A stretch of DNA of 64,000 nt from Lingula anatina. Its lineage: Eukaryota > Animalia > Brachiopoda. The stretch spans positions 744,001-808,000 of the forward strand of contig CM120649.1 of the NCBI GenBank assembly GCA_051362555.1, read 5' to 3'. The notes under the pieces were generated by a model. It ran no database searches. It was given only the letters and a program-made list of their open reading frames with translations, and was not told the DNA's origin. The position numbers and the translations under genes were made by a program. Of the stretch, positions 14,454 through 45,661 are shown piece by piece; the stretch's first letter is position 1, and the number at the start of each line of letters is the position of its first letter.

Positions 14454-15778
14454 CTACACCCGAGACCACTTAATGGACGAAAAATTGCCTGAAAGCCCAG
14501 GATTTTGATCTATACTAGGACCAGACTCCCACTCGACGCCCCTACGTTGATTTTGCTGCAATGATTGTTTTACTAGGTGAGGTTTTTCTGTGCCATGCAT
14601 TTGAGACGGTGTATTTGAACATGTACTCGATGCTCGAACCTTATGTTTAAATGACTCAGCGTTATCAGCTCGCTTTTGTTTTGCGAGTTCTTTTTCAGTA
14701 ATTTTTCGTTTTAAGAACTCTTTATATTTCTGGCAATTTCTTTTAAAATGGTCTTTTCTTTTACAGAAGAAACACACACTTGATGTTTTAGGTGTGGACT
14801 TCCTGACCAAATGTTCAACCGTTTTTTCCAAGTCAGCCCTTGAATTAAATTGAATTGTGCTCAATTTTGGCTGCTGGCTGACACGTTTCTCTATGATGGA
14901 CTCAACTAGTTTTTCAACATTTTCAGATGGAGATTGTTGATTTTCTCTAGCTGTAAGATCAAGAGAACATATTTGAATTTTTTCACGAATTTTTCTTGTT
15001 TCTTTTTGACTATTCGTGGGTTTACAAACATGTTGATAGTCCACCATATGTGTTATTGCGTCGCTGATGCTTGCTGGATGCTTTAAACTAGTATAACGCC
15101 CAGCATCCTGATCAATACAGTCTTGACAAAATTTTGATATTGTTTCTTTTGTCCTAAAAGACTCCGATTTATCAGGATAAGCATCTCTGACCAATAACAA
15201 AACGCGGCAAAGCCATTGGTTTAACGTTTCGTTTTGCGATTGAACGGCAGTAAGAAATGCCAGGCGAGCCGAATCGGGATGTTTTTTAATCCCGAACACT
15301 AAGTCCATTTCTTTCATTATAGATGTGTACGACACATTTTTATTTGCTCTGAGATGGCTATTATACAGAGCCAAAGCCTCGCCTTCAAGACACCACAGAA
15401 GGTAGTCCAGACACTCGTCTTCTGACCACTCTTTTATCTGGCGATAACTTTCATATCTTTTTCTGAAAGACTCCCAGTCGTCACTGTTTCCGTCAAACGA
15501 TAATTGTTTAGGTAAATCACTGGGGTCTACTCTGTCCTTTTTACTTTTTGGACCTACTTTTTCTGGTTTGGGTAGCCGAAAGTATTCTTTTTCAATGTTA
15601 TCCCTTTCATAAATTAGTGGTTCGTCACAGAAAACGGGAGGCGAGATTCTAGGGCGCGTATAATGTTTTCCTATTGAACTAGACCGGTATTCATGATTTT
15701 GTTGAACTGTATCGGCAAAATTTTGCTCAACATGTCGTTGCCGCCTTCCGGGTTTAGGAACATGAAACTGATACAGAT
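14454..15778 (-). CDS. gag: gag, 3' part (capsid-like region plus CCHC zinc knuckle), separated from the 5' part by the LINE
   Basis: The frame is open from the LINE junction (DLYQFHVPKP...LPKQLSFDGNSDDWESFRKRYE...WSEDECLDYLLWCLEGEALALY...) into ORF 14454..15374; it includes the knuckle CFFCKRKDHFKRNC. Confidence 0.85.
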
Positions 15779-15998
15779 TTTTTTTTTTAACAACGTTTAT
15801 TCAAAAGAATGAAGTGGAGGCAAGGCGCTGGAAGCATTATATGCTCTCCACAAAATTAAATTAAATAAGTAAATAAATAAATAAAACAAATGGATAGGTA
15901 TATACATATATACAACAGAGTAAATGTAAAACTTCATATATATATCAGGAGCACAAGTTAAGTACAGAAAGAAAGAAGAGGAAAAGAGATAATACCTA

Positions 15999-18900
15999 TT
16001 AAGTGATAACAAAGTTTACGAGAAGAAAATTTGCAACAGTGTCGAAGATAATTTCATTTTGGGTGGGTGATAAGGATTTATGACCGTAGAGAAATAACGA
16101 CAGCTTTTCTTTTTGTGTTTTGAAAGAGGTCTTGCTTGCATGTAGAGTTTCATTTATTTTTTGGTAAAGGGGAGGGTACTTTGAATTGAGTAAAGGGCAT
16201 CTGAAGAAAAAGTGAAGAGGGGTTTCAAGGGCACCACAGGTGCAGTGTGGTGTATCAATAGTAGTCCAGTTATGCCTAAACAATTCTGCTCTAAATAAAC
16301 AACCGACCCTCGCTCTGTTAAGAATTTTTTCATGATTTCTGTTCAAGTTTAGTGTTGTTGTTGAAAGCGACCCAGCAGTGAGGTGTTTTTTTATCGAGTT
16401 CTTGAAAGATGAGATTGAAGGTAAAGATTTAGTGGAGGAGGAGAGTTGATCCCATGAAGACATCAGAAAATAGTTAACTGAGGTACGGGGGTATTTAGGA
16501 GGAAGTTTAAAGTCTCTTTTGTTATTTTCTCGGGTTATGATTGGAAAAGGGTTTCTGAATGGGCGGAATATATCAGAAACATAGGAGGGGACCAAATTCG
16601 CCATGACTGAAAACATAATTTTTTGAGCATGCATTTTTCTTCTATCAAATAGAGAAATCCAATTTAGTTGTTCAAATATTTTGGAGGTACAAGAGCTAGG
16701 TAAGGCTCCCAGTACTATTTTGCCGGCTTGGTATTGAAGAGACGATAGTTTCGATAATTTCTTCTGGAGTGAGTTATGATAGAAGATGTCACAGTAATCA
16801 AATTGTGATTGGATAAAGGCATTATATATAACATTTAAATGTTTGGACCTAACTTTGCAGTATAGAGGTTTTAGTGCATTTACGGCCCGTTGAACCTTTT
16901 CGCAAACATGATCAATATGATCATTAAAATTTAGTTTTGAATCAAGTACTAGTCCCAGGTGTTTGTGGCTCTTTGTCCTAGGTATCATGGTATTGTTTAT
17001 ATACAATTCAGGGTATGTACTATTATCATTTTCTTTGCCGAATATAATTTCGCGGCACTTTGCCGGTTTAAAATTGAGTTTCCATTTATTGGACCAATTT
17101 TCAATGGTACGTAGGTCACCTTGTAATATAGCATGTGAATCAACATCTCCCCGACGCGAGGGCATAAAGAGGGAAGTATCATCCGCATAGATGAAACAAT
17201 CAGTAGAGAGTCCGTCAGGGAGGTCATTTATATATATGAGAAAAAGTAATGGGCCAAGTATGCTACCTTGGGGTACACTTGTATTTATGTAACCTCCCTT
17301 AGATAAATTAGACGATTTCCCACCAACACGTACTTTAACTCTTCTATTAGACAAGTACGATGACAATAGTGCATGAAGTTTGCCGGTTAGACCGTAAGAC
17401 TTGAGTTTAAGGAGAAGGAGTGAATGGGGAACTCTGTCGAATGCAGCCTCTATATCGAGAAAGACTCCTCTGGTGTCATAACCATTAATAGAATTACTCG
17501 TAATTAAATTATGAATCGCCAAGAGCTGGTGCTCTGTGCTATGACCCTTCAAAAAGCCGGATTGTTTAGGGTATAGGAGTTTGTTGTTCAGAATAAAGTT
17601 AATCACTCTATTATATATTATTCGCTCTAAAATCTTAGATATAATACTAAGTAAAGAAATTGGTCTATAGTTTAAAATAGATTTTTTATCATCTTTTTTA
17701 AAGATTGGGCAAATTTCGGCAATTTTCCAGATGTTGGGGAAGGTATTAGACTGTATAATTGCGTTGAACAGAATATTTAGGGGCTTCACCACGGAGTTTT
17801 TGGTAAGTTTTATCATCTTGACGGTAATCAGGTCAGGGCCGTTAGCTTTAGATGGGTCTAAATCATCAATTATCGATTTAATTTCACTAATAGTGGATTG
17901 TATCTGAGATAGGGAAGCATCAGTTCTTACAGGAAAGAGAATTTCGCCAACATTTGCTACAGAGTCCGAGTGGTACATTGATGAGAAATAGGACAGAAAT
18001 TCATCAGCCTTTTCTTGATCAGTAGAAGCGACAGATCCATTTCTCGGGTTATTGAGAATAGGAATAGAAGACGATCGCTGTTTCCCAAGAATATTTTTCA
18101 TTACGGTCCAGTATGATTTACTATCATCACCTTTATTGTCGAGGCTCTCTATTTTAGAATTAAGGAATGATTCTTTTGTTTTAATTATTAATTCTTTAAC
18201 TTTTATCGCCTGATTTTTGTAATTATTTTCATTCCTTTCTGAAGGTTTAATTCTCATTTTTTTATATAGTTTCTTTTTCTTATTTAACTCATGCTTGATT
18301 TGGTCATTAAACCATGGCTTGTCATTTGACCTGATCAGCCTCCTTTTATGGGGTATATGGCGTTTGTAAAAAGAGAGTAAAGAATCAGTAAAAACTTCAG
18401 TTTTTTCGTTCATATCATAATTATTTTTTAAAAATAGAGTTTCCCAGTCATATTCACTTATGTCTTTGTCTAAAGCCACCAAATTAGCCTGATCGTACTT
18501 CCATATTGTTCTATATACAGGATCGTGTTTGGGTTGAGTAATACAAAGTTCAGTAACGAGGGTACTATGATCCGTTTGGCCAATGGGCGGGTCAACGAAG
18601 GCACTGTTAATTAAGTCGGGTCTGTTTGTCAGAGTCAAATCGATACAAGAAGCGGATTTTCCTTGTATCCTGGTAGGCTCGTGGATCAGTTGATCGAAGC
18701 CTTTTTCTAGAAACAAACTGCTCAAAAGCTTACCCGTGAGGTCTTCCTTACCTTTTCTGAACCAACTAAGAGAGTGAGCATTAAAGTCTCCATTAATAAA
18801 AATACCGTTTGAATTTAGTTGGCATGCTTTTTCGAGACTCATTTTACATAAGTTCACAAACTTGTCTCTTTCGGTTGATGTTTGACTAGGCGACCTATAG

Positions 18901-19751
18901 AAGATGCCATATAAAAACCGCTTAAACTGTAACTGAAATTCAATCCAAATGCAGTTGAGATCGTCACTCTTTAACTCAGGACATTCTTTGTAAACTATTT
19001 TCGAGCTGACATAGATTAATAAGCCTTGGCCAATGTTGTAGTAGATGGGAGAATGGTAACCCTCGATGTTGTAGACAGTGTTTAACTGATAAGAAGATAA
19101 CTTTCCCACCTCACATAAGCCGATGATTGACGCTTTTAGGAGTTTGGCTCGGATCATTAAGGCCTCAAATCTTGCACCATTTTCCGCACTGATGCTTCTG
19201 ATGTTTGAAAACAAAAAATTGACTTCCTCAACCCGATTTTGCAGACGTTTATGTGGGCCTGGATTTGGGTGGATATCACCTGAAATTAAGAGCAATAGAC
19301 ATAAATTAATTTTATAGGGCAGACCAGGAGTTATTGGTAAGATAAACAGAGAGGATGGAAAAAAGGTACCGGTAAGAAAAGACATACTTTTGGCCAATCT
19401 ATTGTTTAGCACATTATTTCGGTTGTATATATTGAGATAATTTGTACTGTTATTAAAAGTAGCAGACACTAAAATTGTTTCCACTTTCCAAGACTGAGAG
19501 TCACCGGGGCTTGGGTAGATTTCCCCTGAAATTAAGAGCAGTAGAAGTATAATAGTCACCAGAGGTAACCAGCAGCAAGTTACGGGTGTTGGAGATAAAG
19601 AAGATAATGAAAATAAGGATATAACGTAATTTGGCTCCGTTTTGCATTTTGCTATACTAGTAGAAATTTGACTATAAGAATAAATCGAGTTAACAAGTCT
19701 ACTAGGCAAATTGCCGACTATGTCAGTTGTGATCAGTTGAAAATGATTCAA
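15999..19751 (-). CDS. LINE ORF2: AP-endonuclease, reverse transcriptase and C-terminal CCHC, 1250 aa, uninterrupted
   Basis: EN motifs NIRS, LCE, YRSP, GDFNAH, CIDL, TDH. RT motifs KANGPD, YRPISLL, QSGF, FLDIEAAFDRV, VPQGSILGPLLF, YADD, HLG. C-terminal CTCGALETPLHFFFRC. Confidence 0.95.
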   Translation of the reverse strand: MNHFQLITTDIVGNLPSRLVNSIYSYSQISTSIAKCKTEPNYVISLFSLSSLSPTPVTCCWLPLVTIILLLLLISGEIYPSPGDSQSWKVETILVSATFNNSTNYLNIYNRNNVLNNRLAKSMSFLTGTFFPSSLFILPITPGLPYKINLCLLLLISGDIHPNPGPHKRLQNRVEEVNFLFSNIRSISAENGARFEALMIRAKLLKASIIGLCEVGKLSSYQLNTVYNIEGYHSPIYYNIGQGLLIYVSSKIVYKECPELKSDDLNCIWIEFQLQFKRFLYGIFYRSPSQTSTERDKFVNLCKMSLEKACQLNSNGIFINGDFNAHSLSWFRKGKEDLTGKLLSSLFLEKGFDQLIHEPTRIQGKSASCIDLTLTNRPDLINSAFVDPPIGQTDHSTLVTELCITQPKHDPVYRTIWKYDQANLVALDKDISEYDWETLFLKNNYDMNEKTEVFTDSLLSFYKRHIPHKRRLIRSNDKPWFNDQIKHELNKKKKLYKKMRIKPSERNENNYKNQAIKVKELIIKTKESFLNSKIESLDNKGDDSKSYWTVMKNILGKQRSSSIPILNNPRNGSVASTDQEKADEFLSYFSSMYHSDSVANVGEILFPVRTDASLSQIQSTISEIKSIIDDLDPSKANGPDLITVKMIKLTKNSVVKPLNILFNAIIQSNTFPNIWKIAEICPIFKKDDKKSILNYRPISLLSIISKILERIIYNRVINFILNNKLLYPKQSGFLKGHSTEHQLLAIHNLITSNSINGYDTRGVFLDIEAAFDRVPHSLLLLKLKSYGLTGKLHALLSSYLSNRRVKVRVGGKSSNLSKGGYINTSVPQGSILGPLLFLIYINDLPDGLSTDCFIYADDTSLFMPSRRGDVDSHAILQGDLRTIENWSNKWKLNFKPAKCREIIFGKENDNSTYPELYINNTMIPRTKSHKHLGLVLDSKLNFNDHIDHVCEKVQRAVNALKPLYCKVRSKHLNVIYNAFIQSQFDYCDIFYHNSLQKKLSKLSSLQYQAGKIVLGALPSSCTSKIFEQLNWISLFDRRKMHAQKIMFSVMANLVPSYVSDIFRPFRNPFPIITRENNKRDFKLPPKYPRTSVNYFLMSSWDQLSSSTKSLPSISSFKNSIKKHLTAGSLSTTTLNLNRNHEKILNRARVGCLFRAELFRHNWTTIDTPHCTCGALETPLHFFFRCPLLNSKYPPLYQKINETLHASKTSFKTQKEKLSLFLYGHKSLSPTQNEIIFDTVANFLLVNFVIT
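19254..19298 (-). other. 2A-like (StopGo) peptide LLLLISGDIHPNPGP upstream of the endonuclease
   Basis: A hydrophobic tract plus GDIxxNPGP; it differs from the canonical D(V/I)ExNPGP by E>H. Confidence 0.6.
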
Positions 19752-19768
19752 AACACTTCCTCCTAACT

Positions 19769-20505
19769 AACTGATACAGATCACAATTCACATCACCCTT
19801 ATGGACAGACGGAGCAAAGTGCCGACTACTGTCCTTACCATTCGGAAAGGAAGTAACAGTATCAGGGTTCATGACGCGGCCTGGAGACTTTGCATGCACA
19901 GAAGATGTTACTTTTTTATCTTTGTTATTGGCACGCAGCCTCTCAATAGGCAGAGCAAAAATGTCGTATTCAGAGGCTAAAGTGGCTGGCTGCGATGTGA
20001 AAGATTTTGGGTCAATAGCTGAGTGAAAATGAGATTTTGAACAATATTTTAATTTAGAATATGTTGATGGTGAAAAATTAGCAGCGTTTTTTATATTTTT
20101 ACTGCGAGAAATTTGTTCTTTGTGTTGAATTTTCTCACCCAGTTTGAGAATTTTTTCAAATTCCGCCCTATATCTCTCAGCAGCCGCCCTTCCTTCATGT
20201 TGAATGTAGGAAGTCACTTTAGAAGTTGTTTTATGACTTTTTTCAGTGGATAATACGCTAGGGTCTAGGTCACCCATCTTGACTTCAGATCCTATTTCAC
20301 TTCGGTGAGTACTTTCAAAACAGAGATTTTTGCTTACATTTGATCCAATATTTGATCCACAAATCTCAAAAACGTTGGATCTGGTCAGCGGGATCCCATG
20401 TTCTCTAGCATATATCCTTTCTGCACGCTTAGGACCTATACCTGGCAGTGTGACGAGCTCATCGGAAGTCTCACGATCGATTGGCAACCTTGATGCACTC
20501 GCCAT
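19769..20505 (-). CDS. gag: gag, 5' part with an N-terminal helix-hairpin-helix motif
   Basis: ORF 19723..20505 begins MASASRLPIDRETSDELVTLPGIGPKRAERI (ComEA-like HhH). It is in frame with the 3' part once the LINE and one TSD copy are removed (241+135+306 = 682 codons). Confidence 0.8.
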
Positions 20506-21079
20506 TGTACATTAGTAAGCGAGAATTAAATTGATTCAAAATAATTTCACCTATCAAAGCACAATACACTACCAAGCTTATAGCGAAATTCACTATAAAT
20601 AGAATCCAAAAACGTACAGTTAATTCAAATTTGGGGAAGGAAGACTTCGGCACACAACGCAATAAGTTGAATTTAGACAGAAATTCTGTTCAGAAACCTA
20701 TCTAAAATACAAAAGAATAATCAACAAAAACACTGAAGTCAATATTTTATTCTTTCAAATAAACTAAAGAAACAAAGAAACTAAAATATTACGTGTGCAC
20801 CTCAGTCTTGGGGAAAATTCAGCTTTGATAACAACACACAGGGGAATGAGACCAACGTCTCCTTTATATCACAATTCACACACGTAAGCACTGAAAATAC
20901 AGTAGATACGCAACAAATACCAGTGTCTCCTGAAGCGGTAACCTTTATGATCCAAAACTGAAACTACAATTTTGACCGCCGCTCCACCCAATTATTCAAA
21001 AGGATGTTAGACAAAGGAATTTCCCGCGTAATCTACTTTCAGCTAGATCGCAGCGAAAACTAAGCTTTAGGCCCGCAAA

Positions 21080-26908: not shown

Positions 26909-27107
26909 TCATTGCTCTTGGTTGACACTGGGGTTGACGTCATCAGGGTCGGCATCGGGAGACTCAGTTTCTGTAGGAAACTCTTCAATGATGGACCTGC
27001 CTGCTCTCCAGCTCTGGATAGCCAACTGGAAACAATGAGGCATCTTTTATTAATTTCATCTCTTTTTAATTTTGTTATTTTATTGTTTTTTTAGTATACT
27101 ATCCCCC

Positions 27108-27154
<47 letters not shown>

Positions 27155-29691
27155 AAAAGGCAACAAAACACCCATATTTCTGAAATACATATATGTGCAG
27201 TTCTTGGTCTTTGGGGTAAGTGAGAAATGAACCCCATATATGCAGTCACAGGCCCTATAGGGTTTAAGGGCATCATGAATTTATAAACATATTGTGGATG
27301 TAGAGTTCTTTTCAACTACAGCACTACTTTCAAAAGTCACAGAATGAGACAAAGAGTTAATGCCCTTAAAACAATACCCTGTGAAACCTCTGTTAGTTTT
27401 TCCTCACCTTTATTTGACTGGGAGTCAGTTTGGACACTGTATCCTTGTCCATTCCAAACACAACTGTATTTAAGGCACCTGAAAAATAAATGTTTACCAT
27501 TAATAAACACAACAGAATGCAGTAGGGAGCATATCACCAGTCCAAGATAGTAGTTAATCAGTAGTGTAATCAGCATTTTCATTCTTTCTTAATTTTTATA
27601 ATTTTTATCTAATTATTAAATGTCTTTTTAAAATGAACCTTATTAATTCTGTAATTATTCATTTGTTTATGTCATTCAGTTAAACTGACTGCACTCAGCA
27701 AGAGTCCCTGCAGAGTTGGACAGATGGTATCTACGGCAATGGGGTTTTATTCTGATCAATCCAACTCTGCAGGGACTCTTGCTTAGGGCAATCAGCATAA
27801 CTGGATAACATGTCTCCTCCTGGCATTGAGCAGAATACAGGCAAGCTGGTGATAATACAAATATATACATTGGACACAAGAGGTGACGTAATTCAGTTAA
27901 GCTGATTGCCCTCAGCAAGAGTCTCTGCAGAGTTGGATTGATCAGAATAAAACCCCATTGCCGTAGATACCATCTGTCCAACTCTGCAGGGACTCTTGCT
28001 GAGTGCAGTTCAATCTTTGTAGATCCATGCTGTCTGTGGGAATAGGAGAATAGGGCTTTATTCTATTTATTTACCATGAAGTGGTGAGGAGATGACATGG
28101 AGTATTAACAGTGCAAACACAGGCTGGTGGTCTGAAGATACGGCATTCTGAATCCTGAAGTAGAAATAAAATAGTTCTGATGAAAATTATATCATGTAGT
28201 ACATGAAGTACGTGTTATGAATTAAAATGTTCCACATCTTAGTCTACACTGGTCTACACTTTTCAACTCCCCCCCCCACTCCCCGAATAAAAACAAATCT
28301 CATTTCAGTGCCCATTGAATACAATGAGGTGAAGATAATTCTCAACAAAGAAGGTATTCTTATTTGTTGTACGGCATAGAATTTTACCTGTTTATAAGTG
28401 GAAAGATGCTAACAGCTAAGTAAACAAATGGATACCCTCTCAGTGGCTTAATGTCTTCTTTCAGCATTTGCTACAAAAAGAAAATAAATTAAATATATAA
28501 TTGTTACTGTGCTGCATGTAAAGTAAGTTTCACTGAAATTAAGTTTCAACTGCGTCTTTCAGGTAAAAGTATGTCTCACAACCATATTATCATGATAAAT
28601 ATTGTTTTGTAGTCTTTTTTCAATAGAAAAGAGCACTGGCTAATAAATAAATAAACAGGTTGAAGTTCTTGAATGCAAAAAAACAATTTTGTTTCTCATG
28701 AATACCATGCAAAGTAGGATCCCTTCAAAACTGGTTTACATGACTGGTTGACATAAACTAACAAATACCAAAATGCTACACAGAAATGTATTTTAAATGA
28801 TTCCAAAATTATTCATGTGAAAAACTGACATTTTTTTCCAGTGAAAATGATTGAGCTGTTACCTTATTGTTTTGTAGTCTTCTTTTACCAGAAAAGAGCA
28901 TTGCCCAAAAAACAAATAAATAACAAGCTTGGTTGAAGTGCTCATATACAAACACAAGGAAACAAATAAAAAAAAAAAAATTACCTTATTTCTCTCCACA
29001 TCAGGGTCATAAGTGCCCTCCCAGGTGTGGACTCTCCTGTTGACTACCACCGTAATGTAGACGTAGACCACAAACAACAGGGCAATGATCAGGAATAGAG
29101 GCACATACCAGCTGAGAAAAGGACAAAAAAAGCTTTATTTATTTATTTATTCCCACCTCAGGGGTGAAAGACATAAAAGAGTACGTACATAAAATTGCAC
29201 ACAAAAGCCCAATAATAAAATCACATAATAAATCAGCTCTAGTATAAGTAATGAAATCATTCTAGAATGTGTTCAGGTTAAAATATAAGAAAGAGGAGTA
29301 TGAAAAATAAATAATACATATAATATATAATACAGAATACATGGTGTTTCACAAAAGAACTTTAGCTCATCAACTGGTCTGAACTATTAGGCCAGCCATT
29401 TGGTTGACTTTGGGTCAAGATCAATCCCTTGTAGTTCACTCAAATAAAGTACTCTCTGACCTCAGGGTGCTCTAGTAGTCTGTTATGTACAAAGTAAATT
29501 GGTCTGGCACCCTGTGTGATTTAAAGTTATTAGCACATCTGACATTTGTGACCCTCAATTCTTTAGTTTTAGTTAAAAATTGAAACATTTTATCTGCACT
29601 TAGGTTCATATCATTTTTACTTTTCTAGTTTATACATTTCTTATACTTACATGCCAAACCTCCAAGGCCACTCTGTGATCCAGCTAAAAAA

Positions 29692-29724
<33 letters not shown>

Positions 29725-32700
29725 TATAATAATAATAATAATAATAATAATAATCCATCTTGTCTCTGTGATTAGTTTCTTTAGCAAGTCAACATATGAT
29801 TACAGTTAAAATGTCTCTTTAAGTGATACTTGATAAACCTATCCAATCTTTACAAAAACTCCAAAATATCAGTTACAAAACACCGCAATTTTGTGTGACC
29901 TGAAATAAATTTAAGTATAAATATATCTTATAATCACCTTACTTGATAACATAGAAAATAGCTTGACTGAGACCAATAACTCTGTAACACATCATATGTA
30001 CTGTACATTCATGAGAGAGAGAGAGAGACAGAGAAGGAGGGAGAGAGACCTAAAAAAAACCTCTAAAGTTAAAACCCTCTCCCAGTGACAGCCATACTTA
30101 CCACCAAGCTCCTGATGGCCCGTATCTATCTCCAGCAAATGGTAGGCAGGAAATAATGATAGGTATAACCCAGCACACTATATGATATACCCTGAAAATA
30201 GACAGCATTAAGATAATTATGATAGGTATAACCCAGCACACTATATGATATACCCTGAAAATAGACAGCATTAAGATAATTATGATAGGTATAACCCAGC
30301 ACAATATATGATACACCCTGGAAATAGACAGTATTAAGATAATTATGATAGGTATAACCCAGCACACTATATGATACGCCCTGGAAATAGACAGTATTAA
30401 GATAATTATGATAGGTATAACCCAGCACACTATATGATATACCCTGAAAATAGACAGTATTAAGATAATTATGATAGGTATAACCCAGCACACTATATGA
30501 TATACCCTGAAAATAGACAGTATTAAGATAATTATGATAGGTATAACCCAGCACACTATATGATATACCCTGAAAATAGACAGTATTAAGATGATTATGA
30601 TAGGTATAACCCAGCACACTATATGATATACCCTGGAAATAGACAGCATTAAGATAATTATGATAGGTATAACCCAGCACACTATATGATACGCCCTGGA
30701 AATAGACAGTATTAAGATAATTATGATAGGTATAACCCAGCACACTATATGATATACCCTGAAAATAGACAGTATTAAGATAATTATGATAGGTATAACC
30801 CAGCACACTATATGATATACCCTGAAAATAGACAGTATTAAGATAATTATGATAGGTATAACCCAGCACACTATATGATATACCCTGAAAATAGACAGTA
30901 TTAAGATGATTATGATAGGTATAACCCAGCACACTATATGATATACCCTGGAAATAGACAGCATTAAGATAATTATGATAGGTATAACCCAGCACACTAT
31001 ATGATACGCCCTGGAAATAGACAGTATTAAGATAATTATGATAGGTATAACCCAGCACACTATATGATATACCCTGGAAATAGACAGCATTAAGATAATT
31101 ATGATAGGTATAACCCAGCACACTATATGATATACCCTGAAAATAGACAGTATTAAGATAATTATGATAGGTATAACCCAGCACACTATATGATATACCC
31201 TGAAAATAGACAGTATTAAGATAATTATGATAGGTATAACCCAGCACACTATATGATATACCCTGAAAATAGACAGTATTAAGATGATTATGATAGGTAT
31301 AACCCAGCACACTATATGATATACCCTGGAAATAGACAGCATTAAGATAATTATGATAGGTATAACCCAGCACACTATATGATACGCCCTGGAAATAGAC
31401 AGTATTAAGATAATTATGATAGGTATAACCCAGCACACTATATGATATACCCTGAAAATAGACAGTATTAAGATAATTATGATAGGTATAACCCAGCACA
31501 CTATATGATATACCCTGAAAATAGACAGTATTAAGATAATTATGATAGGTATAACCCAGCACACTATATGATATACCCTGAAAATAGACAGTATTAAGAT
31601 GATTATGATAGGTATAACCCAGCACACTATATGATATACCCTGGAAATAGACAGCATTAAGATAATTATGATAGGTATAACCCAGCACACTATATGATAC
31701 GCCCTGGAAATAGACAGTATTAAGATAATTATGATAGGTATAACCCAGCACACTATATGATATACCCTGAAAATAGACAGCATTAAGATAATTATGATAG
31801 GTATAACCCAGCACACTATATGATATACCCTGAAAATAGACAGTATTAAGATAATTATGATAGGTATAACCCAGCACACTATATGATATACCCTGAAAAT
31901 AGACAGCATTAAGATAATTATGATAGGTATAACCCAGCAGACTATATGATACGCCCTGGAAATAGACAGCATTAAGATAATTATGATAGGTATAACCCAG
32001 CACACTATATGATATACCCTGAAAATAGACAGTATTAAGATAATTATGATAGGTATAACCCAGCACACTATATGATACGCCCTGAAAATAGACAGTATTA
32101 AGATAATTATGATAGGTATAACCCAGCACACTATATGATACGCCCTGAAAATAGACAGTATTAAGATAATTATGATAGGTATAACCCAGCACACTATATG
32201 ATATACCCTGAAAATAGACAGTATTAAGATAATTATGATAGGTATAACCCAGCACACTATATGATACGGCCTGGAAATAGACAGTATTAAGATAATTACG
32301 ATAGGTATAACCCAGCACACTATATGATATACCCTGAAAATAGACAGTATTAAGATAATTATGATAGGTATAACCCAGCACACTATATGATATACCCTGA
32401 AAATAGACAGCATTAAGATAATTATGATAGGTATAACCCAGCACACTATATGATATACCCTGAAAATAGACAGCATTAAGATAATTATGATAGGTATAAC
32501 CCAGCACACTATATGATATACCCTGAAAATAGACAGTATTAAGATAATTATGATAGGTATAACCCAGCACACTATATGATATACCCTGAAAATAGACAGT
32601 ATTAAGATGATTATGATAGGTATAACCCAGCACACTATATGATACGCCCTGAAAATAGACAGTATTAAGATGATTATGATAGGTATAACCCAGCACACTA

Positions 32701-33726
32701 TATGATATGCCCTGAAAATAGACAGTATTAAGATAATTATGATAGGTATAACCCAGCACACTATATGATATACCCTGAAAATAGACAGTATTAAGATAAT
32801 TATGATAGGTATAACCCAGCACACTATATGGTACGCCCTGGAAATAGACGGTATTAAGATGATTATGAGCATATCCCAATATTGTATGTGCCAAGTGACT
32901 AAAAGGGTAGATTGTTTATTCAGCACACTGCCTCTAATGAAGCCAATAAACATTTTCTTAGCAATGCTAATTAAGACTCTGCTGTTAAGTTGCATTTCAC
33001 ATAAAACATTCTTTCAAGTTTGCAAGAGTGTGCGTGTGTGTGTGGGAGGGGGGGAGGGTAAGCAGACATCACACATGAAAAATCAGTTGGTCCAGTCTGG
33101 AGTAACGCTTTGGACTTAGTCTTGGTGGACACACTTTGAACTGATATCCAGTTTAAAGCTGTCCTGTCTTCACAGGCCTTAATGCAATCACCGGCTACTA
33201 AGTCTGACAACCTCTTACCATTCATATTTCTCAGTCTTCTTCATGGCTATCACCAGCATGGCAAGATTGAGAGTTATAGCACATACCCATAGCAGGACTG
33301 ACCAGTCTGAAAAGGACAAAAATATATTTAAACATCATAGTTTGACGTGGCACTTTTTGTGAGCTGGAATATTTACCTTCTAGTAGATTTATCAGAATGA
33401 GGTTGGGGTGTGTGTGGTAATCCATCCCCTCCCCCCCTTACAACAACCTCTTGTTACTGGGCTCTATTTACACACAAAAATATTTATAAGGATTGTTTTC
33501 TTTAAAGTATCATACTATCATTCCTCGTAACTAAAGGTAACCCTGTTAGGATAATAAAGAAGGAAATAAAAACAACAAAAACATTTTAAAAGCAGAATTC
33601 TGACTGAACAGACATATTGAAGTTAATATTTTGATAACACTAACCCAAACAATAATCAATATAAACAATAATTTTAAAACAAATATTATTTAAGGAGAGT
33701 AAACTAATCAAATAAATTATCTACAG

Positions 33727-33800
<74 letters not shown>

Positions 33801-35901
33801 GGTTGGAAACTCCTCCTAAAATTCAACCAGACAGCAGGACAGGTTACTCTTGAAAGTTACCTGTCCTACCATAAACCAACCTGTCCTCAAAAAATCGAGA
33901 GAATTATGATAATAATGTGCATGTATGACTAAATTTAATAATTCAAGACATTTTTGAATGTTGTTTTCTTTCAAACTTCATAAATAAAACTCATAATACC
34001 AGTGCTGTCTTGATACCAAAGAATCAAATTTATTTTTATATTCAGTTATGGTCTGTCCCCCCACCCATACATCATGGATTGCAAAAAAAAAAAAAAATAA
34101 TAATAATAAAAAAAAAAATAAATAAAATAAAATAAAATAATAAATATATATATGCACCATGCCAAATATCTATTAATACAAAATTATAGCAAAACCATTT
34201 GACAGAAACAAAATGCACCACAGTCAATACAGTCAGTACTGAAGAACAAGTATTTTAATTTAACTGAAGTATCTACATCACTGCAAATTTTCATGAAAGG
34301 AGCATTAAAATTCAAAACTGAACTATCAAATCATTGGCATGGTAAGCAGTAGCAGCTTGCAAGTAAAACAGTATCAGTTTGGTGAATAAAATTGATGAAT
34401 GTCAACTGCAAGTCACAGTGCCTGTCCTGATATATGAAAACCTCACTTGACCAAAGATCAAGTCATTCTGTTTGAATCTTCAAAATGTTAATTGAAAAAA
34501 AAAAACAAACTGCATTTACTCATGAGATTTTTGCTAAATGAATTCCTTTAATCATCTCCACCAGATTCACTGTAGTCATTATCATCCCTCTCTTCCATAT
34601 CTGAAAATCCGACTCGTAGCCCGAGTCAATAGATTTTGATGGTTGCTCACTTGGCATCTGAACGCTGGTGCCCTCCCTTTTACCTTGCTCCACATCAACA
34701 ATAATCTCCTCAAAGTGGTCAACAGCAGATTTGGGCTTGCATCTTTCCATGAAAGTTGGCCTTCTTGCCCCAGTGCTCCACTGAGTTATTGCTGGTTTGG
34801 GGACAAGTTCTTGAATTGTGCTTGAATGTAGCTGGATTGACATTAGCAGAATCATAGATTATGCTTTCAACTTGTTTTTATATCGATTCTTGATTATTTT
34901 CAACTGGGAAAACCCACGTTCACACTCTGCTGTATCAGCAAGTGTGAAAAAAAGCATACGTTTGGATTTCCTTCATCATAAGGCATTTTAACTAGTACTA
35001 TACAAAAATTTTTTTCAGTATTTAATAAAAATCTTTCTCCAATAAATTTACTGCATATTTTACCTGACTTAAATGGGTTACAAATGCGTGGTGACATTGG
35101 TAATATGATAAAGAAGACAATGTGGCAAACTAATGTAGCGTACATTTGAAATTTCTACGTCTTTAGAAGCACCGACATGCAACGAAAGTTTCTTGGCCTT
35201 CCTGAAAAAAATCATGAAAAGCGACCAGCGACGGAGGTCCGTAAAGACTACGACCAAAATAAGAGGCAGCGGACGATTGTTCCAAGTTGGAAAGCAGAGT
35301 TTAGTTGGCTGATATGTAACGAAAACCGTCAAATTTTATATCCGTTTATACCCGTTTATGGCCCGCTTTTGTCAAGGAAGAAATTTAACCGGTATAAAAA
35401 TGGACCCTTCGTTAAAGGATGCAAAAATTTAAGGCATCGTGAATTTACGCTACATTAGCTCACCATATTGTCTTCTTTATCATATTACCGATGTTACCTT
35501 GCATTTGATTGGCTTATTGCAGCGAATCTTCCCGCGACAAAAGTCGAGAGTAAGTCATTTAATGACATATCACTGACCTATATTCCTATATTTGGAATGT
35601 TCACGTGACTTATTGGTTTATCGCAGTGAAATTTTCCCGCGGTAAAAGTCGGAAGTACTCGATGTAATGACGTATCATTGACCTATTTTCCTATATTCAG
35701 AATGCTCATGTGATTTATATTGTAAACACTTATATATAAGTAAATGTGTGAATCTCAAAATCAAGAAAGACGCGATGTTTCACGCTCAGATCTACTGACG
35801 ACTTCAAAGTGCGGCCCGACCACAGGACGGTCTCCAAATTAATTTTACCCGTCCTCCATGAAATTAGACCGTCAAGGACGTTGGGACGGGCGGTTATTTC
35901 C

Positions 35902-35987
<86 letters not shown>

Positions 35988-37334
35988 AAATAAATTAAAT
36001 GAAAAATTAAAAAAGCTAATGGCGGGTTACTCACCAAAGAGAGTCATAAAGAAAGCCTGAAAATCACATAAAGGTCCATCAGGATGCATGTCTCCCTGAA
36101 ATGTGAAAAAAATCTAACATAGAAAAAACTATCATATTGACATACATATCATGGGCGTAACTAGGCATACGCACGGATGCACTGTGCGTACAATTTTTTT
36201 GCCAACCATGATATTATTTTATATAAATTTAGTGTATTTTTCACGGAATATAAAAGAAAATCCTCTGCTTATTAAAGTCACCTGTATGTACAAATCCTCT
36301 GTATCAATTGTAAAGGCACAGTTGTTCTGCCCCCCCTCAGTAAAGAAATACAAGTGTGTACAATTTTTAAAGGTCTGGTTACGCCCCTGCATATGTATAG
36401 TTCAAATACACTGAGCTTTATAAATTCTTCCTTTAAAAAGACACTGTCTATAGAAAAGTGTAATGAAGCTTACCTTTGTTTGAATAAAGGTAATTGTAAA
36501 AATATATTTATAATTATTAATATCATAAAAGCATATTTGGTTATATGCATTTTAATTTTACAGTTATATACACTTAACAATCAAAAATTATGAAAATATA
36601 ATACAGTGACTTTGCAATAATACTGAAAACTATATATTGATAGCTTTATACTTAAAAATAGTTTAAAACATCTTAAAGAGAAAAGGAAAGGGAGCAGAAA
36701 GACACTGATCATAAAAACATTTCAAAACTTTAATCAAACAAGTTTCTAAGACTTCTAGTGTAACTCCTCACCATTATATAAGCTATACTGTCCATAAATG
36801 CTGCTACACTAAGATATAAGATAAGTCTCTGAAAATGTGAAAAAAAAGTCCAAATAACTAAACTGTAATCATAATGCAAAAGATTGTGGTCAGTCTTATG
36901 CCAAGATGCAATTTTCAAAGTTAATATTTAACAAACAATAATAACACCAAATTAAATGTCAAATTTAAACGACCCTTCCTTCTTTAAATATGACAAGAAC
37001 AATAAAATTATCATTCTGTTATCTTTCATTCAGGTACTAGTAGAAACATAAACAAACAAACAGAGAAAATGCCCGTAAACAAAAGGTTGCTAGACAGGTT
37101 TGTGACAAACACTGTTAATATTAAGTTCCTTATCTCTTTGAATGACTGCAGTGAATTATCATTTCCGTATTTGATTCAACTCGACCTTTGTTACAGGTCA
37201 TTATGAGAACTGTCATAGTATTTAAGTTAGATAAATTTGATTGTTTGTGTGTGTGCATGTGTGTGTGTGTGTGTGGATCTGTATGTATTTGTGATAAGAT
37301 TGTGCATGTGCACTGAATGCTTGATCCAAGACAT

Positions 37335-37390
<56 letters not shown>

Positions 37391-37943
37391 TGTACATGTG
37401 TATGTGTGTGTGCAGGTGTGAGTACATTTGTGCACTACTTGTAATATATACATAGTATATAATCATGATATTTGTTTACTGACTCACCTGTGTAAATACT
37501 ATATATTTCCTAAATAATACAATCACTGATATCATGAAGATGCTGAAATATGGAAAAAAAAGAAAATGATTAAGAAATAAATAGAAAACAATAAGATCTT
37601 ACAATAAATAAATTTTCAGTAAAGATATATATACTTTCTACTCATCAAATATTATTGCTTAAGACCCAAAGAGTCACTGATACATATTTTATGTATAATT
37701 CATAACTTGAGATCAATTAACACATACTAGTATAGCATATCTGAAACCATATGTTTCTCCACAAATCATGTGTTAACATTTTGATCAGAAATGATGATGA
37801 TAATCCCAATTCACTCTCTTTGCAGATAACAGTCAAAGGCATTATCTCTTGGGTCATGTTTTTGAGCTTACCAATCTATTTACATAATAACACTATGTAC
37901 TAGTATATCTAGTATAATCTATATATATGATAAAATACTGCAT

Positions 37944-37988
<45 letters not shown>

Positions 37989-39025
37989 TGTGTGTATGTG
38001 TGTGTGTGTGTGTGTGTACATGCATGCATGTGTGTGTGTTGAGGATTAATGCTTGCACAATGTAGGATAAAAAAGATCAACCGACTTTACTCAGCATATC
38101 TACAGGCATAGAAATACAAATAAATATATTTAAGAGAGGTTTAATAAATGATAATATCTTCTTCTCTATAGACTTGTGTAGTATTTAGTATAATAGAATA
38201 TATTTTTTATCAATATGGCATCCTATACTCACCATCCTAGAAAGGATAAGGAGGCAGTTGTTCTTTTTACAGCAATGAGGATTTCCTGAATGTAGATAAT
38301 TTTAATTCTTACAAAATGCACCATCTTTTGATATTTCATCCATCTTTTGATATTTCATAGACATTTTTATCAAATGCTTAAATAATGAAAACCAAATGCA
38401 GAGACGGAGATAGATTCATAGTAAAATAGCACATAAAGTTACTGGTCTATTGCATGACTTATGAAATACTGTAATCTGTTTTAAAATGATAAAACTGACA
38501 AAGGCAAACCAAGTGTCATTTCATTTAAGATTGTCTTTAAACATCTAGAATTGAATTGATGAAAGTTTTAAAGACTGAAGAAACGACTTTGTGAAAAATA
38601 TCCTAGACTTCACGTTTTGCTGCTAGGATTCTGTAATTTTTATAATTATTATTATGTTTACACATTTCTAAAGCAAACGACAGGCACATAGCAAAAGCAA
38701 AACTTAAACTAAAAGCAATCTGCATTACAAAGAATTAAACACAAACTACAAATAACTCCAACATACCCGGCCCACCAGAATTTACCGGAAACAATTAATG
38801 TTCATATGACGTCGATTCTATTTCAAAACACCCCACAAAACACTTTCAACATCTTCTTATTTTTAGAAAAATCTGTGAAAAAACACTTTACATAAGTTTG
38901 ACATTTTACAGATAAAAGATACTTACACATTTATGTGGATCGTCTCTGAACATGGAACATGCCTGTTGAGGAGTTGTGGTGAAATTCATCGAGGAGTCAG
39001 CGACGACTAGTTCCTCCATCTCCAT
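26909..39025 (-). CDS. cAMP-receptor-like 7TM GPCR (Dictyostelium cAR/CrlA, GCR1, GPR157-like), 337 aa; exons 39025-38927, 38285-38233, 37542-37488, 36828-36772, 36095-36035, 33306-33219, 30191-30102, 29683-29651, 29111-28985, 28470-28388, 28154-28075, 27478-27408, 27025-26909
   Basis: 13 GT-AG exons with matching phases total 1014 nt from ATG to TGA: MEMEELVVADSSMNFTT...SLSFLGCIFMISVIVLFRKY..FTQRLILYLSVAAFMDSIAY...GPLCDFQAFFMTLFDWSVLLWVCAITLNL...EKYEWVYHIVCWVIP...YGPSGAWCWI...WRFGIWYVPLF...LRGYPFVYL...PLINRIQN...PLHGALNTVVFG...EQ*. RLILYLS, C..Q, YH..CW..P, YG..GAWCWI and YP are family hallmarks. Confidence 0.9.
27688..28009. mobile_element. Inverted pair of about 116-bp self-complementary MITE-like units in GPCR intron 11
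   Basis: 27688-27803 and 27894-28009 are near-exact reverse complements. Each unit also has its own inverted arms CAGCAAGAGTCCCTGCAGAGTTGGA / TCCAACTCTGCAGGGACTCTTGCT. Confidence 0.8.
29695..29753. repeat. (AAT)n microsatellite next to the acceptor of the 33-nt GPCR exon 8
   Basis: Seen directly. Confidence 0.9.
30156..32868 (-). repeat. 63-bp minisatellite, 43 copies; unit = 3' splice site plus the start of GPCR exon 7
   Basis: Period 63 (acceptor AGs at 30192-30193 and 32838-32839 are 42x63 apart). Unit on -: ATCTTAATACTGTCTATTTTCAG|GGTATATCATATAGTGTGCTGGGTTATACCTATCATAATT. The last unit runs into the unique part of exon 7. Confidence 0.95.
33732..33797. repeat. (TA)n microsatellite, left half of a tract split by the hAT element (right half 35909-35971)
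   Basis: Seen directly. Confidence 0.95.
33798..35908 (-). mobile_element. Internally deleted hAT DNA transposon inserted in a (TA)n tract in GPCR intron 5
   Basis: TIRs CAGGGTTGGAAA / TTTCCAACTCTG with (TA)n on both sides. hAT dimerisation-domain relic on - at about 34760-34935 (DTAECERGFSQLKIIKNRYKNKL*...PAITQWSTGARRP). N-terminal-like fragment KRQRTIVPSWKAEFSWL on + at 35177-35330. Confidence 0.8.
36150..36389. mobile_element. Small hAT-like MITE in GPCR intron 4
   Basis: Ends CATGGGCGTAAC / GTTACGCCCCTG; TSD not evident. Confidence 0.55.
37338..37412. repeat. (GT)n microsatellite
   Basis: Seen directly; similar tracts at about 24788-24820, 37948-38017, 56096-56138 and 63504-63546. Confidence 0.95.
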
Positions 39026-42362: not shown

Positions 42363-44914
42363 TAGACGAATCAGAAAAGGATAGTTTTCTATACATATTG
42401 AACAAACGCGACAAAATTTGGTTATCTTGAGCGTCATGTCCCATACGCGTGTCAGCTACTTCGTTTACATAACACAGTATGATATGTACAAGGTCACGGA
42501 ACTTTATTTTTACCCTCATATTTGACTGCGATTCTACTGTATCATATAGAGGGAATTTGACACAGTTTATTTCCCATGATCGACGCCATTAACTTCAGTC
42601 AAACACCACTGATATGAAGTTCAAGTTCAGCCGTAAAAAGCGGGCATGTATGAAGATTTATTAAAAAGGGTAAAAACTGGCCTGCGTCACCTCTGACTCT
42701 AAAATCCCAGCTTGCCTGCCCTATTTGCTGTCGTCCCTGAGCGTTAACATGAATTTTAGCTACCCATTAAATCAATCGCTACTCATTTAATAAAAGCATA
42801 TAAAGTTCAAGACCTTCTCTGTTTTCCTTAGTAATCAATACTCGAAATAGCCTCATAGCGCATTAGGAATGGCCTTTTAAAGCTATAGATGTCCAGTCCA
42901 TGTCGCTCTCGGAAAGACTGGATTAAACTTAATACATGACATTAAGCCGTGATCCGCGTGGAACGCTGATCAATAAGGGGAATAGAATTAATTGACCTTA
43001 ATGGACGCCGAGGCACGTCTTCATTAAAAGGTCGAGATCAGTTACTGACCAGGGAACTGTTTTATAAAAGAACGAAGGCCTGGAAATTGGTCTAAGCTTC
43101 GAGACAAATCACTAGGGTCCCTATTAAGTGAAATATTGCATCGGTTTGTATATCAAGGAAGTTGTGATGTAGGAGCCTAAGTTTGAGACCAATACCCACT
43201 TTACATGTGTTGATATCTACGAAAAATGTCCTGAAGTGGACCAAAGGTTGATCATTCTTCGAGCTGAATACTTTTTTAGAGGGCGTATTCTTTATAAAAA
43301 CCAAGTGGTTAAGGCATTTATACGTGCAAGAAGGGGTCGTGAACGAATTAGATAAGGGGAGAAAGAACACAAATCTATATAAAAAATACATGGGACACAT
43401 GCGCTGCGTGTTTCTTCGCAAGACTTTAAATGTTCAAGAGACGATTGCAGCTGAAAAACATCCCTAAACACAGAGGGAAATTTTTCGCTAGATATTTACA
43501 TTTATTTCCCCGGCTATTCACTATCTGTGCACGATTCTGTTCTGTCCAGCGAGGGTTTTTGCACAACAACTCCATGCACTACATCAACAAACCGTCCTCT
43601 GAGAGAGAGTACTCCTAATGAACGTGCACAGGCAGGTGGTCTTAATAAATGGAAGGGAAAGTCCGAATAGATTTCCTTTAAACATTATTAGCCGAAATTC
43701 ATCGCTAAATCGTGTTATCTTTTTGCTCATCTTCTGTGCTGTTTTGAACGTTCTGAATCCACACTCACTTGCTTTCTTTCCTCTCCCCCCCTCTCTCTCC
43801 ATTATCCTTTTCTGCCCTCTCTCTCTTTCCTCTCTCTGTGAACACGCAATTAACATAGACATCCCTCTTTCTACCGTAGCTCTATTCTTCGCAATTTTCG
43901 CAAAACACATTTCTCCAATTTTGCCCATCTTGTTGATTTGCTGAGTCTCTGCGCTGACCCTACAAACATTATTGTATAGCTGTCTATTCGTACTCTAACG
44001 ATCAATTTCGGGAAAAAAACTCCAATTGAAAAATCCAGGGTCCCCGTTAGTTCTTGTTAGTGCGTGACGTGAGATAATTTCTGTTGACTTGTATTGTTTA
44101 TGGACGACGCACGTTAACCTCTCAGCTTTGATGAATTAAGGGTCGCTTGGCCATTATTGAATTAAACTTTATGAACTGCTTCGTTCAACGTCAGTTGCCT
44201 TGCTGTAAACGCATGGATTCATAAGCGGAGATACAGCTTAACGTATACAGTGTACTTTTAATTCGTCCTTTTACCAATTGTCTTCTGTGTGAGTACTTAT
44301 TGGTTACTATTTGTTGGCCTCCAGATTCTGAGCTGAAACCGCATTGTGCAACCAAACGCAATTTGCAACCAAAGTAAAACGCGAAGACGCATTTTGCAAC
44401 CGCAATGCAATTTGCAACCCGTCTTTTTTCCTGCATCATATCACAAGGCAACACAAACGTGTGCCAGGGAAATATTGCAAGAAAGATTTTCCGTCATAAG
44501 ACTCATATATCAATTATTTATCATCTGGTGCTAATTATGTTGTAACTCTAACCCTTGGCATTGCCACTGTCGTCCAGTGATGTATTGTAAATGTAACTGG
44601 TCCGCAGGCAAGTTTTTTCATTTCTATTTTTTTAACAGATCGAACATGGTTTGGGCAGACTCGATCAAGCTACATACACGTCATTGGCGACCTATCCAGC
44701 GTGAATTGTTTTTGTTTCCAGTTAATTTATCTAAATACACAAAAAATACCCTTAACATATCGGTTCTTCCTGGTTGTCTGCTATAATAAGACAAAACGTC
44801 TGGCAACGGCAATAACACTATAAAAAGAAAGGCTTTTAACTTTATCTTTTTCAGACCCCTTTTCAGCTTATTGTCATTTTTTGTACCCATATCCACAGTG
44901 CTTTAATAAGAAGC

Positions 44915-45661
44915 TAAAATGGTTTCAGCTACTATTTCATACATTTAGGAAACACGACTTTACCACTATGCTTAATAAAACTTATTCCAAGAATTCATGG
45001 TTTAATAAAGAGGCATTTTAACACTAAAATGGTTTCAGCTACTGTTTCATATACATTCAGGAAACACGACTTTGTCTCTATATCTAATAAAACTTATTCC
45101 AATAATTCTTGGTTTGATAAGTTTTATTTTAACACTAAATGGCTTCAGCTACTGTTACATATATCCAGAAAACACGGCTTTGTCACTATGCCTGATAAAA
45201 CTTATTCCAATAATTCATGGTTTAATAAAGAAGCATTTTAACACTAAAATGGTTTCAGCTACTGTTTCATATATTCAGAAAACACGACTGAGTCACTATG
45301 CCTGATAAAACTTATTCCAATAATTCATGGTTTAATGGAGAAGCATTTTAACACTAAATTGGCTTCAGCTACTGTTTCGTATATATTTAGGAAACACGAC
45401 CCTGTCACTATACCTAATAAAACTTATCCCAAGAATTCATGGTTTAATAAAGAGGCTTTTTAACACTAAAATGGTTTCAGCTACTGTTTCATATATCTAG
45501 AAAACACGACTTTGTCTCTATATCTAATAAAATTTATTCCAATAATTCTTAGTTTGATAAGTTTTATTTTAACACTAAATGGCTTCAGCTACTGTTACAT
45601 ATATTTAGAAAACACGGCTTTGTCACTATGCCCAATAAAACTTATTCCAATATCTCATGGT
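44915..45661. repeat. About 110-bp tandem repeat, about 7 copies
   Basis: The unit TAAAATGGTTTCAGCTACTG...AAACACGAC...AAAACTTATTCCAA...TTTTAACAC recurs about every 110 bp. Confidence 0.9.

What the first reader, a model, noticed from the sequence alone, without database searches (positions are those of the whole stretch)
30102..32868. A splice acceptor amplified 43 times: in-frame minisatellite that could add transmembrane helices to a GPCR
Seen: the 63-bp unit is the intron 6/exon 7 junction of the cAR-like GPCR. Every unit has a branch-point-like CTTAAT, a pyrimidine tract and CAG (TTTTCAG or TTTCCAG), followed by the first about 12 codons of exon 7 (VYHIVCWVIPII, TM4). All 43 AGs are intact. 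The unit is 21 codons with no stop in the receptor frame, which is the 965-aa ORF ending ...SCLPFAGDRYGPSGAW. Exon 6 ends in phase 2 (TG|), compatible with every acceptor. The apparent original intron end is at the far copy (32838), while the unique exon body follows the near copy (30192). Inference: the near acceptor gives a normal 337-aa 7TM receptor. The k-th upstream acceptor inserts k copies of the hydrophobic 21-mer VYHIVCWVIPIIIILILSIFR, with odd k possibly flipping downstream topology. The array could be a copy-number-dependent splicing rheostat or decoy, or a snapshot of exon sequence becoming intron by tandem duplication.
Basis: partly seen in the sequence, partly recalled or inferred. 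Interest (0 to 1): 0.85.

Follow-up and report, generated by a model that had tools for sequence, protein, structure and literature searches.

The report
Brachiopod receptor's 43-copy splice-junction "mirage"
A 63-base piece spanning an intron end and the start of the next exon of a lamp-shell (Lingula) receptor gene is repeated 43 times, but every informative RNA read examined joins only the last, true copy, so it is most likely a tolerated repeat of a kind already known from lancelets ("mirage") rather than a switch that adds membrane helices.

Summary
The array is real and as described: 43 intact acceptors at exact 63-nt spacing (30192-32838, minus strand), built from the intron 6/exon 7 junction of a 13-exon receptor gene. 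The 337-aa product is identical to Lingula anatina XP_013420698.1. DNA contigs show tens of copies in two runs and a single acceptor on both haplotypes of a third, so this is a presence/length polymorphism, not an assembly artefact.

RNA does not support the extra-helix reading. Of 68 reads laid from four runs, 51 carry exon 6 at the acceptor position; at least 38 run on into the unique exon body, and none is seen joining an upstream copy. Four reads lie inside the array, fitting about 1% unspliced RNA. Intact AGs and the open hydrophobic frame are within chance.

This is a new member of the amphioxus "mirage" minisatellites and CBS 844ins68-type duplications; this scan has noted 15 similar findings in at least 6 genomes. 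One extra: array units and the coding copy share variants (V139A, I150V), hinting at sequence exchange. Minor upstream use (below roughly 8-15%) and exon-7 skipping remain untested.

The parts
30152..32868 (-). 63-bp minisatellite, 43.1 copies; unit = last 27 nt of intron 6 + first 36 nt of exon 7; 14 unit types with a 5-unit higher-order block repeated 4 times
   Evidence: block in 0 of 100,000 shuffles of unit order
30192..30193 (-). near (43rd) acceptor AG, the one used
   Evidence: exon 6 loose ends at 30192 in 19 of 22 (X12), 7 of 8 (X18), 25 of 36 (X13) laid reads and in the X8 contig
32838..32839 (-). far (1st) acceptor AG, next to unique intron; the most divergent copy (6 of 59 letters from copy 43) and lowest crude acceptor score
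   Evidence: X1 contig 3 runs from this copy into unique intron
30102..30191 (-). exon 7, 90 nt, phase 2-2, codons 138-168 (TM4 and following loop); first 36 nt shared with the array
33219..33306 (-). exon 6, 88 nt, donor TG|gtaaga
   Evidence: its 3' end is the loose-end consensus
29651..29683 (-). exon 8, 33 nt
   Evidence: loose ends before 30102 in X12, X13, X18, X8
32869..33218 (-). unique part of intron 6; ends in TCATAAT, the microhomology with exon 7 codons 149-151
   Evidence: allele 30155 A>T in X2/X15 makes the match 7 of 7
26909..39025 (-). 13-exon coding region of a cAMP-receptor-like 7TM protein, 337 aa

Best explanation
This is a polymorphic splice-junction minisatellite in which the spliceosome joins exon 6 to the last of 43 acceptors, so the 42 upstream copies are removed as intron and the receptor keeps its normal 337 aa; it likely arose by one microhomology-guided duplication and likely grew by unequal exchange. 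Step 1 (inferred): a 63-nt duplication between TCATAAT in intron 6 and TCAT(A/T)AT in exon 7 copied the acceptor plus 12 codons. Step 2 (shown as pattern, mechanism inferred): block-wise expansion, seen in the repeated 5-unit block and in different depths between runs; one run lacks the array. Step 3 (shown for the reads examined): the donor-proximal acceptor is used. Step 4 (inferred): it wins by exon definition, because it gives the shortest exon (90 nt against 153, 216, 279 ... 2736) and sits next to the purine-rich unique exon body; it is not the strongest site by sequence, as 20 of 42 upstream copies score higher on a crude matrix. Because the unit is in frame and stop-free, nonsense-mediated decay cannot be hiding the upstream products (established knowledge), so the bias lies in acceptor choice. 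Step 5 (inferred, weaker): the coding copy is itself the last unit and likely exchanges sequence with the array, so codons 139-150 share a variant pool with non-coding copies.
For: RNA: 51 of 68 laid reads carry exon 6 at 30192; from the read counts at 30149, at least 15 of 19 (X12), 18 of 25 (X13) and 5 of 7 (X18) pass the point where units and exon body diverge; depth on the intron part of the unit is 0 in X12, X15, X18. X13 carries the array (4 sense-strand reads go back 63 nt) and still splices both of its exon-7 alleles to the near site. The X8 contig (869 nt, depth 195, 0 differences from the window in exon 7) reads exon 6|7|8. RefSeq model has 337 aa; no insert column in residues 134-158 among 15 aligned homologues. 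DNA: unit contigs at depth 1267 and 1700 against flanks 53-59 in X1; 1697 and 2090 against 44+45 in X2, whose flank alleles differ by 6-7 of 98 letters; X10 has two haplotype paths (17/37, merged 59, then 21/37) that leave for unique intron at 30219 with no high-depth unit. [quoted passage not shown] Shared variants: 4 of 5 differences seen in exon positions 1-36 of other samples are letters present in the window's upstream units, P about 0.002-0.005 under mutation-biased nulls.
Against: Read numbers are small: 0 of at least 38 informative reads allows up to about 8% upstream use, and 0 of at least 18 in X13, the only RNA run shown to carry the array, allows about 15% (95% bounds, my arithmetic). 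Whether X12, X15 and X18 carry the array is unknown. The 4 array reads in X13 fit 0.6-1.4% unspliced RNA but also 4-9% of mRNAs with 2-5 extra units; only k=1 is disfavoured (P 0.03). Exon-7 skipping cannot be seen on the stretch laid. In PMC9225289 section 9 the exon-centric rule is weaker for 3' sites (upstream preference only 'significantly reduced') and the data are human. The shared-variant test is post hoc, n = 5, ignores which residues the site tolerates, and 3 of the 4 matches lie at CpG-related positions. Contig depth is only a rough guide to copy number, and X1 may be the window's own source.
Confidence: 0.82

Rival explanations
1. Upstream acceptors are used at a low but real level, giving receptors with 1-5 extra hydrophobic 21-mers in TM4, as the nearest pseudo-donors are used in human IFI6 (6-16) and CBS intron 13.
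For: All acceptors are intact and in frame; 20 of 42 score above the used one; 4 of 36 X13 reads come from the array on the sense strand; human donor-side arrays use the two nearest pseudo-sites (PMC1557585, passages).
Against: No read seen joining exon 6 to an upstream copy among at least 38 informative reads; the 4 array reads appear to carry no exon 6 part (32 of 36 laid reads run on unlike; P 0.03 for k=1); 0 of 32 reads in three other runs touch the intron part.
Confidence: 0.1
2. The array acts as a length-dependent brake: it slows intron 6 removal or promotes in-frame skipping of the 90-nt exon 7, as the ABCA7 VNTR does for exon 19.
For: Exon 7 is symmetric (phase 2-2), so skipping would escape decay; ABCA7 precedent (PMC5954066, passages); array RNA is detectable in polyA reads of X13.
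Against: The dominant contig in X8 includes exon 7; in F7 minigenes the number of units did not change site choice (PMC1557585); the implied unspliced share is about 1%. Skipping itself was not measured.
Confidence: 0.06
3. The array, or most of its length, is an assembly artefact.
For: No long read spanning the array was examined; depth in X1 implies 33-41 rather than exactly 43 copies.
Against: High-depth unit contigs in two DNA runs of different studies, one with clearly different flank alleles; unit-to-unit RNA reads in a third sample; 14 unit types in an ordered higher-order pattern.
Confidence: 0.02

Closest known systems
Amphioxus 'mirage' minisatellites (Adh3, globins BflGb6/BflGb9, troponin C, PGBD5; PMC3087553 passages, PMC3902484 passage)
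   Same: Tandem repeats of an intron 3' end plus exon 5' start (BflGb6), splice signals kept in many units, normal splicing, length differences between haplotypes, divergent border units.
   Different: Brachiopod; 43 units against 3-6 in BflGb6; unit is in frame and stop-free; an array-free state is seen under the same species label; evidence of variants shared with the coding copy.
Human CBS 844ins68 (PMC2630376, abstract and passages)
   Same: Duplicated intron/exon junction of similar size (68 nt); the downstream site is used and the upstream exon copy is spliced out; gene conversion from the duplicate allele into the coding sequence was proposed.
   Different: Two sites rather than 43; 68 nt is out of frame; mechanism studied by minigenes.
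Human donor-side junction VNTRs: F7 intron 7, IFI6 (6-16), CBS intron 13, LMNB2, PDGF (PMC1557585, passages)
   Same: A minisatellite reiterates an authentic splice site; the site next to the exon body is used alone or almost alone.
   Different: Those repeat 5' splice sites; this repeats a branch-point-like motif, pyrimidine tract and 3' site.
ABCA7 intron 18 VNTR (PMC5954066, passages)
   Same: VNTR that includes a splice site.
   Different: Donor side; a length-dependent effect (exon 19 skipping) is shown there and untested here.
cAMP-receptor-like / GCR1-like 7TM proteins (Pfam Dicty_CAR PF05462; zebrafish si:dkey-100n23.5 group)
   Same: Host gene: 66.5 bits against cut-off 21; 215 relatives at E <= 1e-10 from sponges to amphibians.
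   Different: Ligand and G-protein coupling were not tested; the name is an annotation.

Membership tests
mirage minisatellite | tandem repeat whose unit spans an exon-intron boundary of the host gene | tested here: met
   27 nt intron + 36 nt exon, 43 copies
mirage minisatellite | units keep splice signals | tested here: met
   43 of 43 AG
mirage minisatellite | regular splicing is not disturbed | tested here: met
   51 of 68 laid reads at the acceptor position, at least 38 unambiguous, none at an upstream copy; low-level use and exon skipping not excluded
mirage minisatellite | length differs between haplotypes | tested here: met
   absent on both X10 haplotypes; depth ratios about 19-23 in X2 and 22-32 in X1; rough
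mirage minisatellite | homogenised interior, divergent border units | tested here: met
   mean pairwise difference 2.0 of 59 letters; copy 1 differs from copy 43 by 6, the maximum; repeated 5-unit block
mirage minisatellite | somatic instability (reported for Adh3) | not testable with these tools
   needs long reads from tissues of one animal
intron gain by tandem duplication of an AG/GT proto-splice site (Rogers model) | a new intron position is created from a duplicated donor and acceptor | tested here: not met
   exon 6|7 junction is unchanged and no inserted letters or extra exon are listed in reads; the unit reads AG|G|GT, not AG|GT
splicing-modulating VNTR (ABCA7 type) | isoform share changes with array length | not testable with these tools
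   no paired genotype and RNA; exon 6-8 reads cannot lie on the stretch used
cAR-like 7TM receptor (PF05462) | profile match above the curated cut-off | tested here: met
   66.5 bits against 21
cAR-like 7TM receptor (PF05462) | seven long helices | tested here: met
   predicted helices 30-60, 67-91, 96-129, 134-158, 173-209, 215-254, 262-284; mean pLDDT 71.7
cAR-like 7TM receptor (PF05462) | ligand binding and G-protein coupling | not testable with these tools
   name comes from annotation

The most novel reading that the evidence does not exclude
In array-bearing animals a minority of transcripts (up to about 10%, or more in a tissue not sampled) use upstream acceptors and encode receptors with extra hydrophobic 21-mers in TM4, their share set by copy number, while unit turnover also feeds amino-acid variants (V139A, I150V) into the coding copy: a minisatellite that edits a GPCR both by splicing and by sequence exchange.
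Probability: 0.1. Interest if true: 0.65.

Novelty: new member of a known kind. Interest (0 to 1): 0.3.

Why it matters
As a system it is known: junction minisatellites that the spliceosome ignores. Its value is as a clean natural experiment. The unit is in frame and stop-free, so decay cannot mask upstream use; 42 equal or stronger acceptors are still passed over in an invertebrate with short-to-medium introns, which argues for cross-exon selection of 3' splice sites outside vertebrates. An array-free state exists under the same species label, giving a before/after comparison. If the shared variants reflect exchange, such arrays are not fully neutral: copies free of coding constraint could supply amino-acid changes to the first codons of an exon, as proposed once for human CBS. 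If upstream acceptors were used in some tissue, repeat length would tune the number of membrane segments in a receptor, which would be new; the reads do not show this.

Tried and rejected
No whole genome is held for this window, so I could not count such arrays genome-wide; the scan has no other notes on this genome. The run search listed no RNA holder; this blank is not evidence, and RNA runs came as same-species additions. X15 gave 2 reads and no listed junction. Selection on the AGs: rejected (P 0.65). Selection for an open hydrophobic frame: rejected as within chance. Near acceptor wins by being strongest: rejected on a crude 11-site matrix. Recursive (ratchet) splicing and Rogers-type intron gain: rejected, the unit lacks AG|GT and no inserted letters are listed. 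Excess of amino-acid changes in the shared 36 nt (2 of 5 against 0 of 9 in the unique body): not significant, P 0.11. Single-exon Pfam scans were weak. Paper searches: no paper holds brachiopod + Lingula + minisatellite + intron; mirage + minisatellite + exon + amphioxus gave 2 papers; a Lingula genome search gave nothing specific; some searches gave the other leads. Subscription journals are mostly not searched, and the original mirage paper (Canestro et al., cited in PMC3087553) and Romano et al. 2002 were not read. No supplements were read.

Full report
Observation. The minus strand of 30152-32868 is a 63-bp tandem array of 43.1 copies, 96% matches and no indels. A script found 43 acceptors, each exactly 63 nt from the next, from 32838 to 30192; each unit is the last 27 nt of an intron (CTTAAT, pyrimidine-rich stretch, CAG) plus the first 36 nt of the following exon. 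Twelve of 63 columns vary, giving 14 unit types; one 5-unit block occurs 4 times, a count reached in 0 of 100,000 shuffles of unit order. The receptor frame is open through the whole array.

Host gene. Thirteen exons from 39025 to 26909, all with GT-AG borders, give 337 aa when exon 6 is joined to the near acceptor. A search with exon 9 returned 3 proteins; the best is Lingula anatina 'cyclic AMP receptor-like protein A', XP_013420698.1, identical to my model, so the window is very likely from this brachiopod. The protein scores 66.5 bits on Pfam Dicty_CAR (cut-off 21) and has 215 relatives at E <= 1e-10. A predicted model shows seven long helices; the duplicated codons 139-150 lie in the fourth, 134-158. 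Among 15 aligned proteins there is no insert column in that helix. Intron 6 would be 381 nt to the far acceptor; ten of the other eleven introns are 233-690 nt.

Is it real? I laid 8 of 21 listed runs on 30055-30230, which holds exon 7 and one acceptor. In X1, flank contigs have depth 53 and 59 and unit contigs 1267 and 1700; scaled by how often those words occur in the window's array this implies about 33-41 copies. X1 may be the window's own source. X2, from another study and with flank alleles 6-7 letters in 98 away from the window, has unit contigs at 1697 and 2090 against haplotype flanks of 44 and 45. X10 shows two haplotype paths (17 and 37) that merge (59), split again (21 and 37) and leave for unique intron sequence at 30219, with no high-depth unit: I read this as a single acceptor on both haplotypes. 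Contig depth is a rough guide, but the array exists in more than one animal, differs in size, and is absent in one.

Which acceptor is used? In four raw RNA runs 68 reads were laid (22, 2, 8, 36). Fifty-one have a loose end at 30192 whose letters are the end of exon 6 (19, none listed, 7, 25). A read with 36 exon letters or fewer cannot tell the copies apart; from the counts at 30149, at least 15, 5 and 18 of these reads (38 in all) run on into the unique exon body and so come from the near acceptor. Depth on the intron part of the unit is zero in X12, X15 and X18. In X13 four sense-strand reads go back 63 nt, proving that this sample carries an array; since 32 of its 36 reads run on into unlike sequence, I infer that these four lie wholly inside the array, without exon 6. 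They fit 0.6-1.4% of molecules holding a long array (unspliced RNA or far acceptors), are unlikely from one-extra-unit mRNA (P 0.03), but would also fit 4-9% of mRNAs with 2-5 extra units. X8, on record as 'DNA?' but with no intron coverage, has one 869-nt contig at depth 195, identical to the window in exon 7 and reading exon 6|7|8. The 95% ceiling on upstream use is about 8% over all informative reads and 15% in X13 alone (my arithmetic). Exon-7 skipping could not be seen on this stretch.

Are the striking features selected? No sign of it. Both AG letters escape variation with probability 0.65 given 12 variable columns; 26 of 36 acceptor tails of this gene are stop-free in a given frame and many are hydrophobic because pyrimidine-rich codons are.

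Mechanism. Origin (inferred): the intron just upstream of copy 1 reads TCATAATC and the exon at the other breakpoint TCATTATT; the allele seen in X2 and X15 makes the exon TCATAAT, a 7-letter exact match, enough for slippage or unequal exchange. Growth (inferred from the repeated block and size differences): unequal exchange of blocks. Choice (inferred): both flanking introns exceed 250 nt, the size at which human exons are defined across the exon; the near site gives the shortest exon and adjoins a body that is 50% G+C with six purine-rich trimers against 32% and none in the unit. It is not the strongest site, as 20 of 42 upstream copies score higher on a crude matrix trained on the gene's 11 other acceptors. 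PMC9225289 (passages and section 9) reports an exon-centric proximity rule, though for 3' sites only as a reduced upstream preference. Because upstream products would be in frame without stops, decay cannot explain their absence (established knowledge).

One extra observation. Five differences were read in exon positions 1-36 of other samples' coding copies; four are letters that occur in the window's upstream units, including both amino-acid changes, V139A (20 of 30 X13 reads) and I150V (8 of 18 X12 reads, 7 of 28 X13 reads, one X2 haplotype). Under nulls weighted for transitions, silent sites and CpG the chance is about 0.002-0.005. The test is post hoc and small, its direction is unknown (X10, without an array, carries one of the shared letters), three matches are CpG-related, and both residues are common in homologues. 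It suggests exchange between array and coding copy; a precedent was proposed for CBS 844ins68 (PMC2630376, abstract).

Comparison. Earlier notes of this scan (15 findings in at least 6 genomes; listing only) led me to the name 'mirage'. PMC3087553 (passages) describes minisatellite-like duplications of an intron 3' end plus exon 5' part in amphioxus globin BflGb6, with kept splice signals, undisturbed splicing, length instability and divergent border units; PMC3902484 (passage) adds troponin C and PGBD5. Human parallels are CBS 844ins68, the F7, IFI6, CBS intron 13, LMNB2 and PDGF donor arrays (PMC1557585, passages), where at most the two nearest pseudo-sites are also used, and ABCA7, where length drives exon skipping (PMC5954066, passages). 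Five defining features of mirages were tested and met; no new intron position is made. I found no paper on this locus (limited library).

Verdict. A real, large, in-frame mirage minisatellite that is most likely spliced out whole. New member of a known kind; interest 0.3. The extra-helix or rheostat reading is not excluded at low levels (about 0.1) and is directly testable.

Noticed in passing
window 15999-19766 (-): Intact 1255-aa frame with endonuclease and reverse-transcriptase domains (LINE-like), lying between a 262-aa helix-hairpin-helix frame (19723-20511) and a 448-aa PNMA/gag-like frame with a CCHC motif (14454-15800); possibly a LINE inserted into a gag-like gene.
   Followed up: partly
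window 44914-45663: Second minisatellite, 110 bp x 6.8, 84% matches; not checked for an exon border.
   Followed up: no
window 33307-36034 (-), intron 5: Intron 5 is also long for this gene (2728 nt) and holds a 105-bp x 2 repeat, two (TA)n runs and a 112-aa frame at 34520-34858 without a Pfam hit; perhaps a decayed insertion.
   Followed up: partly
window 27676-28062 (-), intron 11: A 128-aa frame over what looks like an inverted repeat (about 27690-27790 against 27900-28010), MITE-like by eye.
   Followed up: no
window 30055-30230 in runs X2, X10, X12, X13, X15, X18: Runs under one species label differ from the window by 5-10% of letters on this stretch, nearly all silent in the exon body, consistent with very high diversity or a species complex.
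   Followed up: partly
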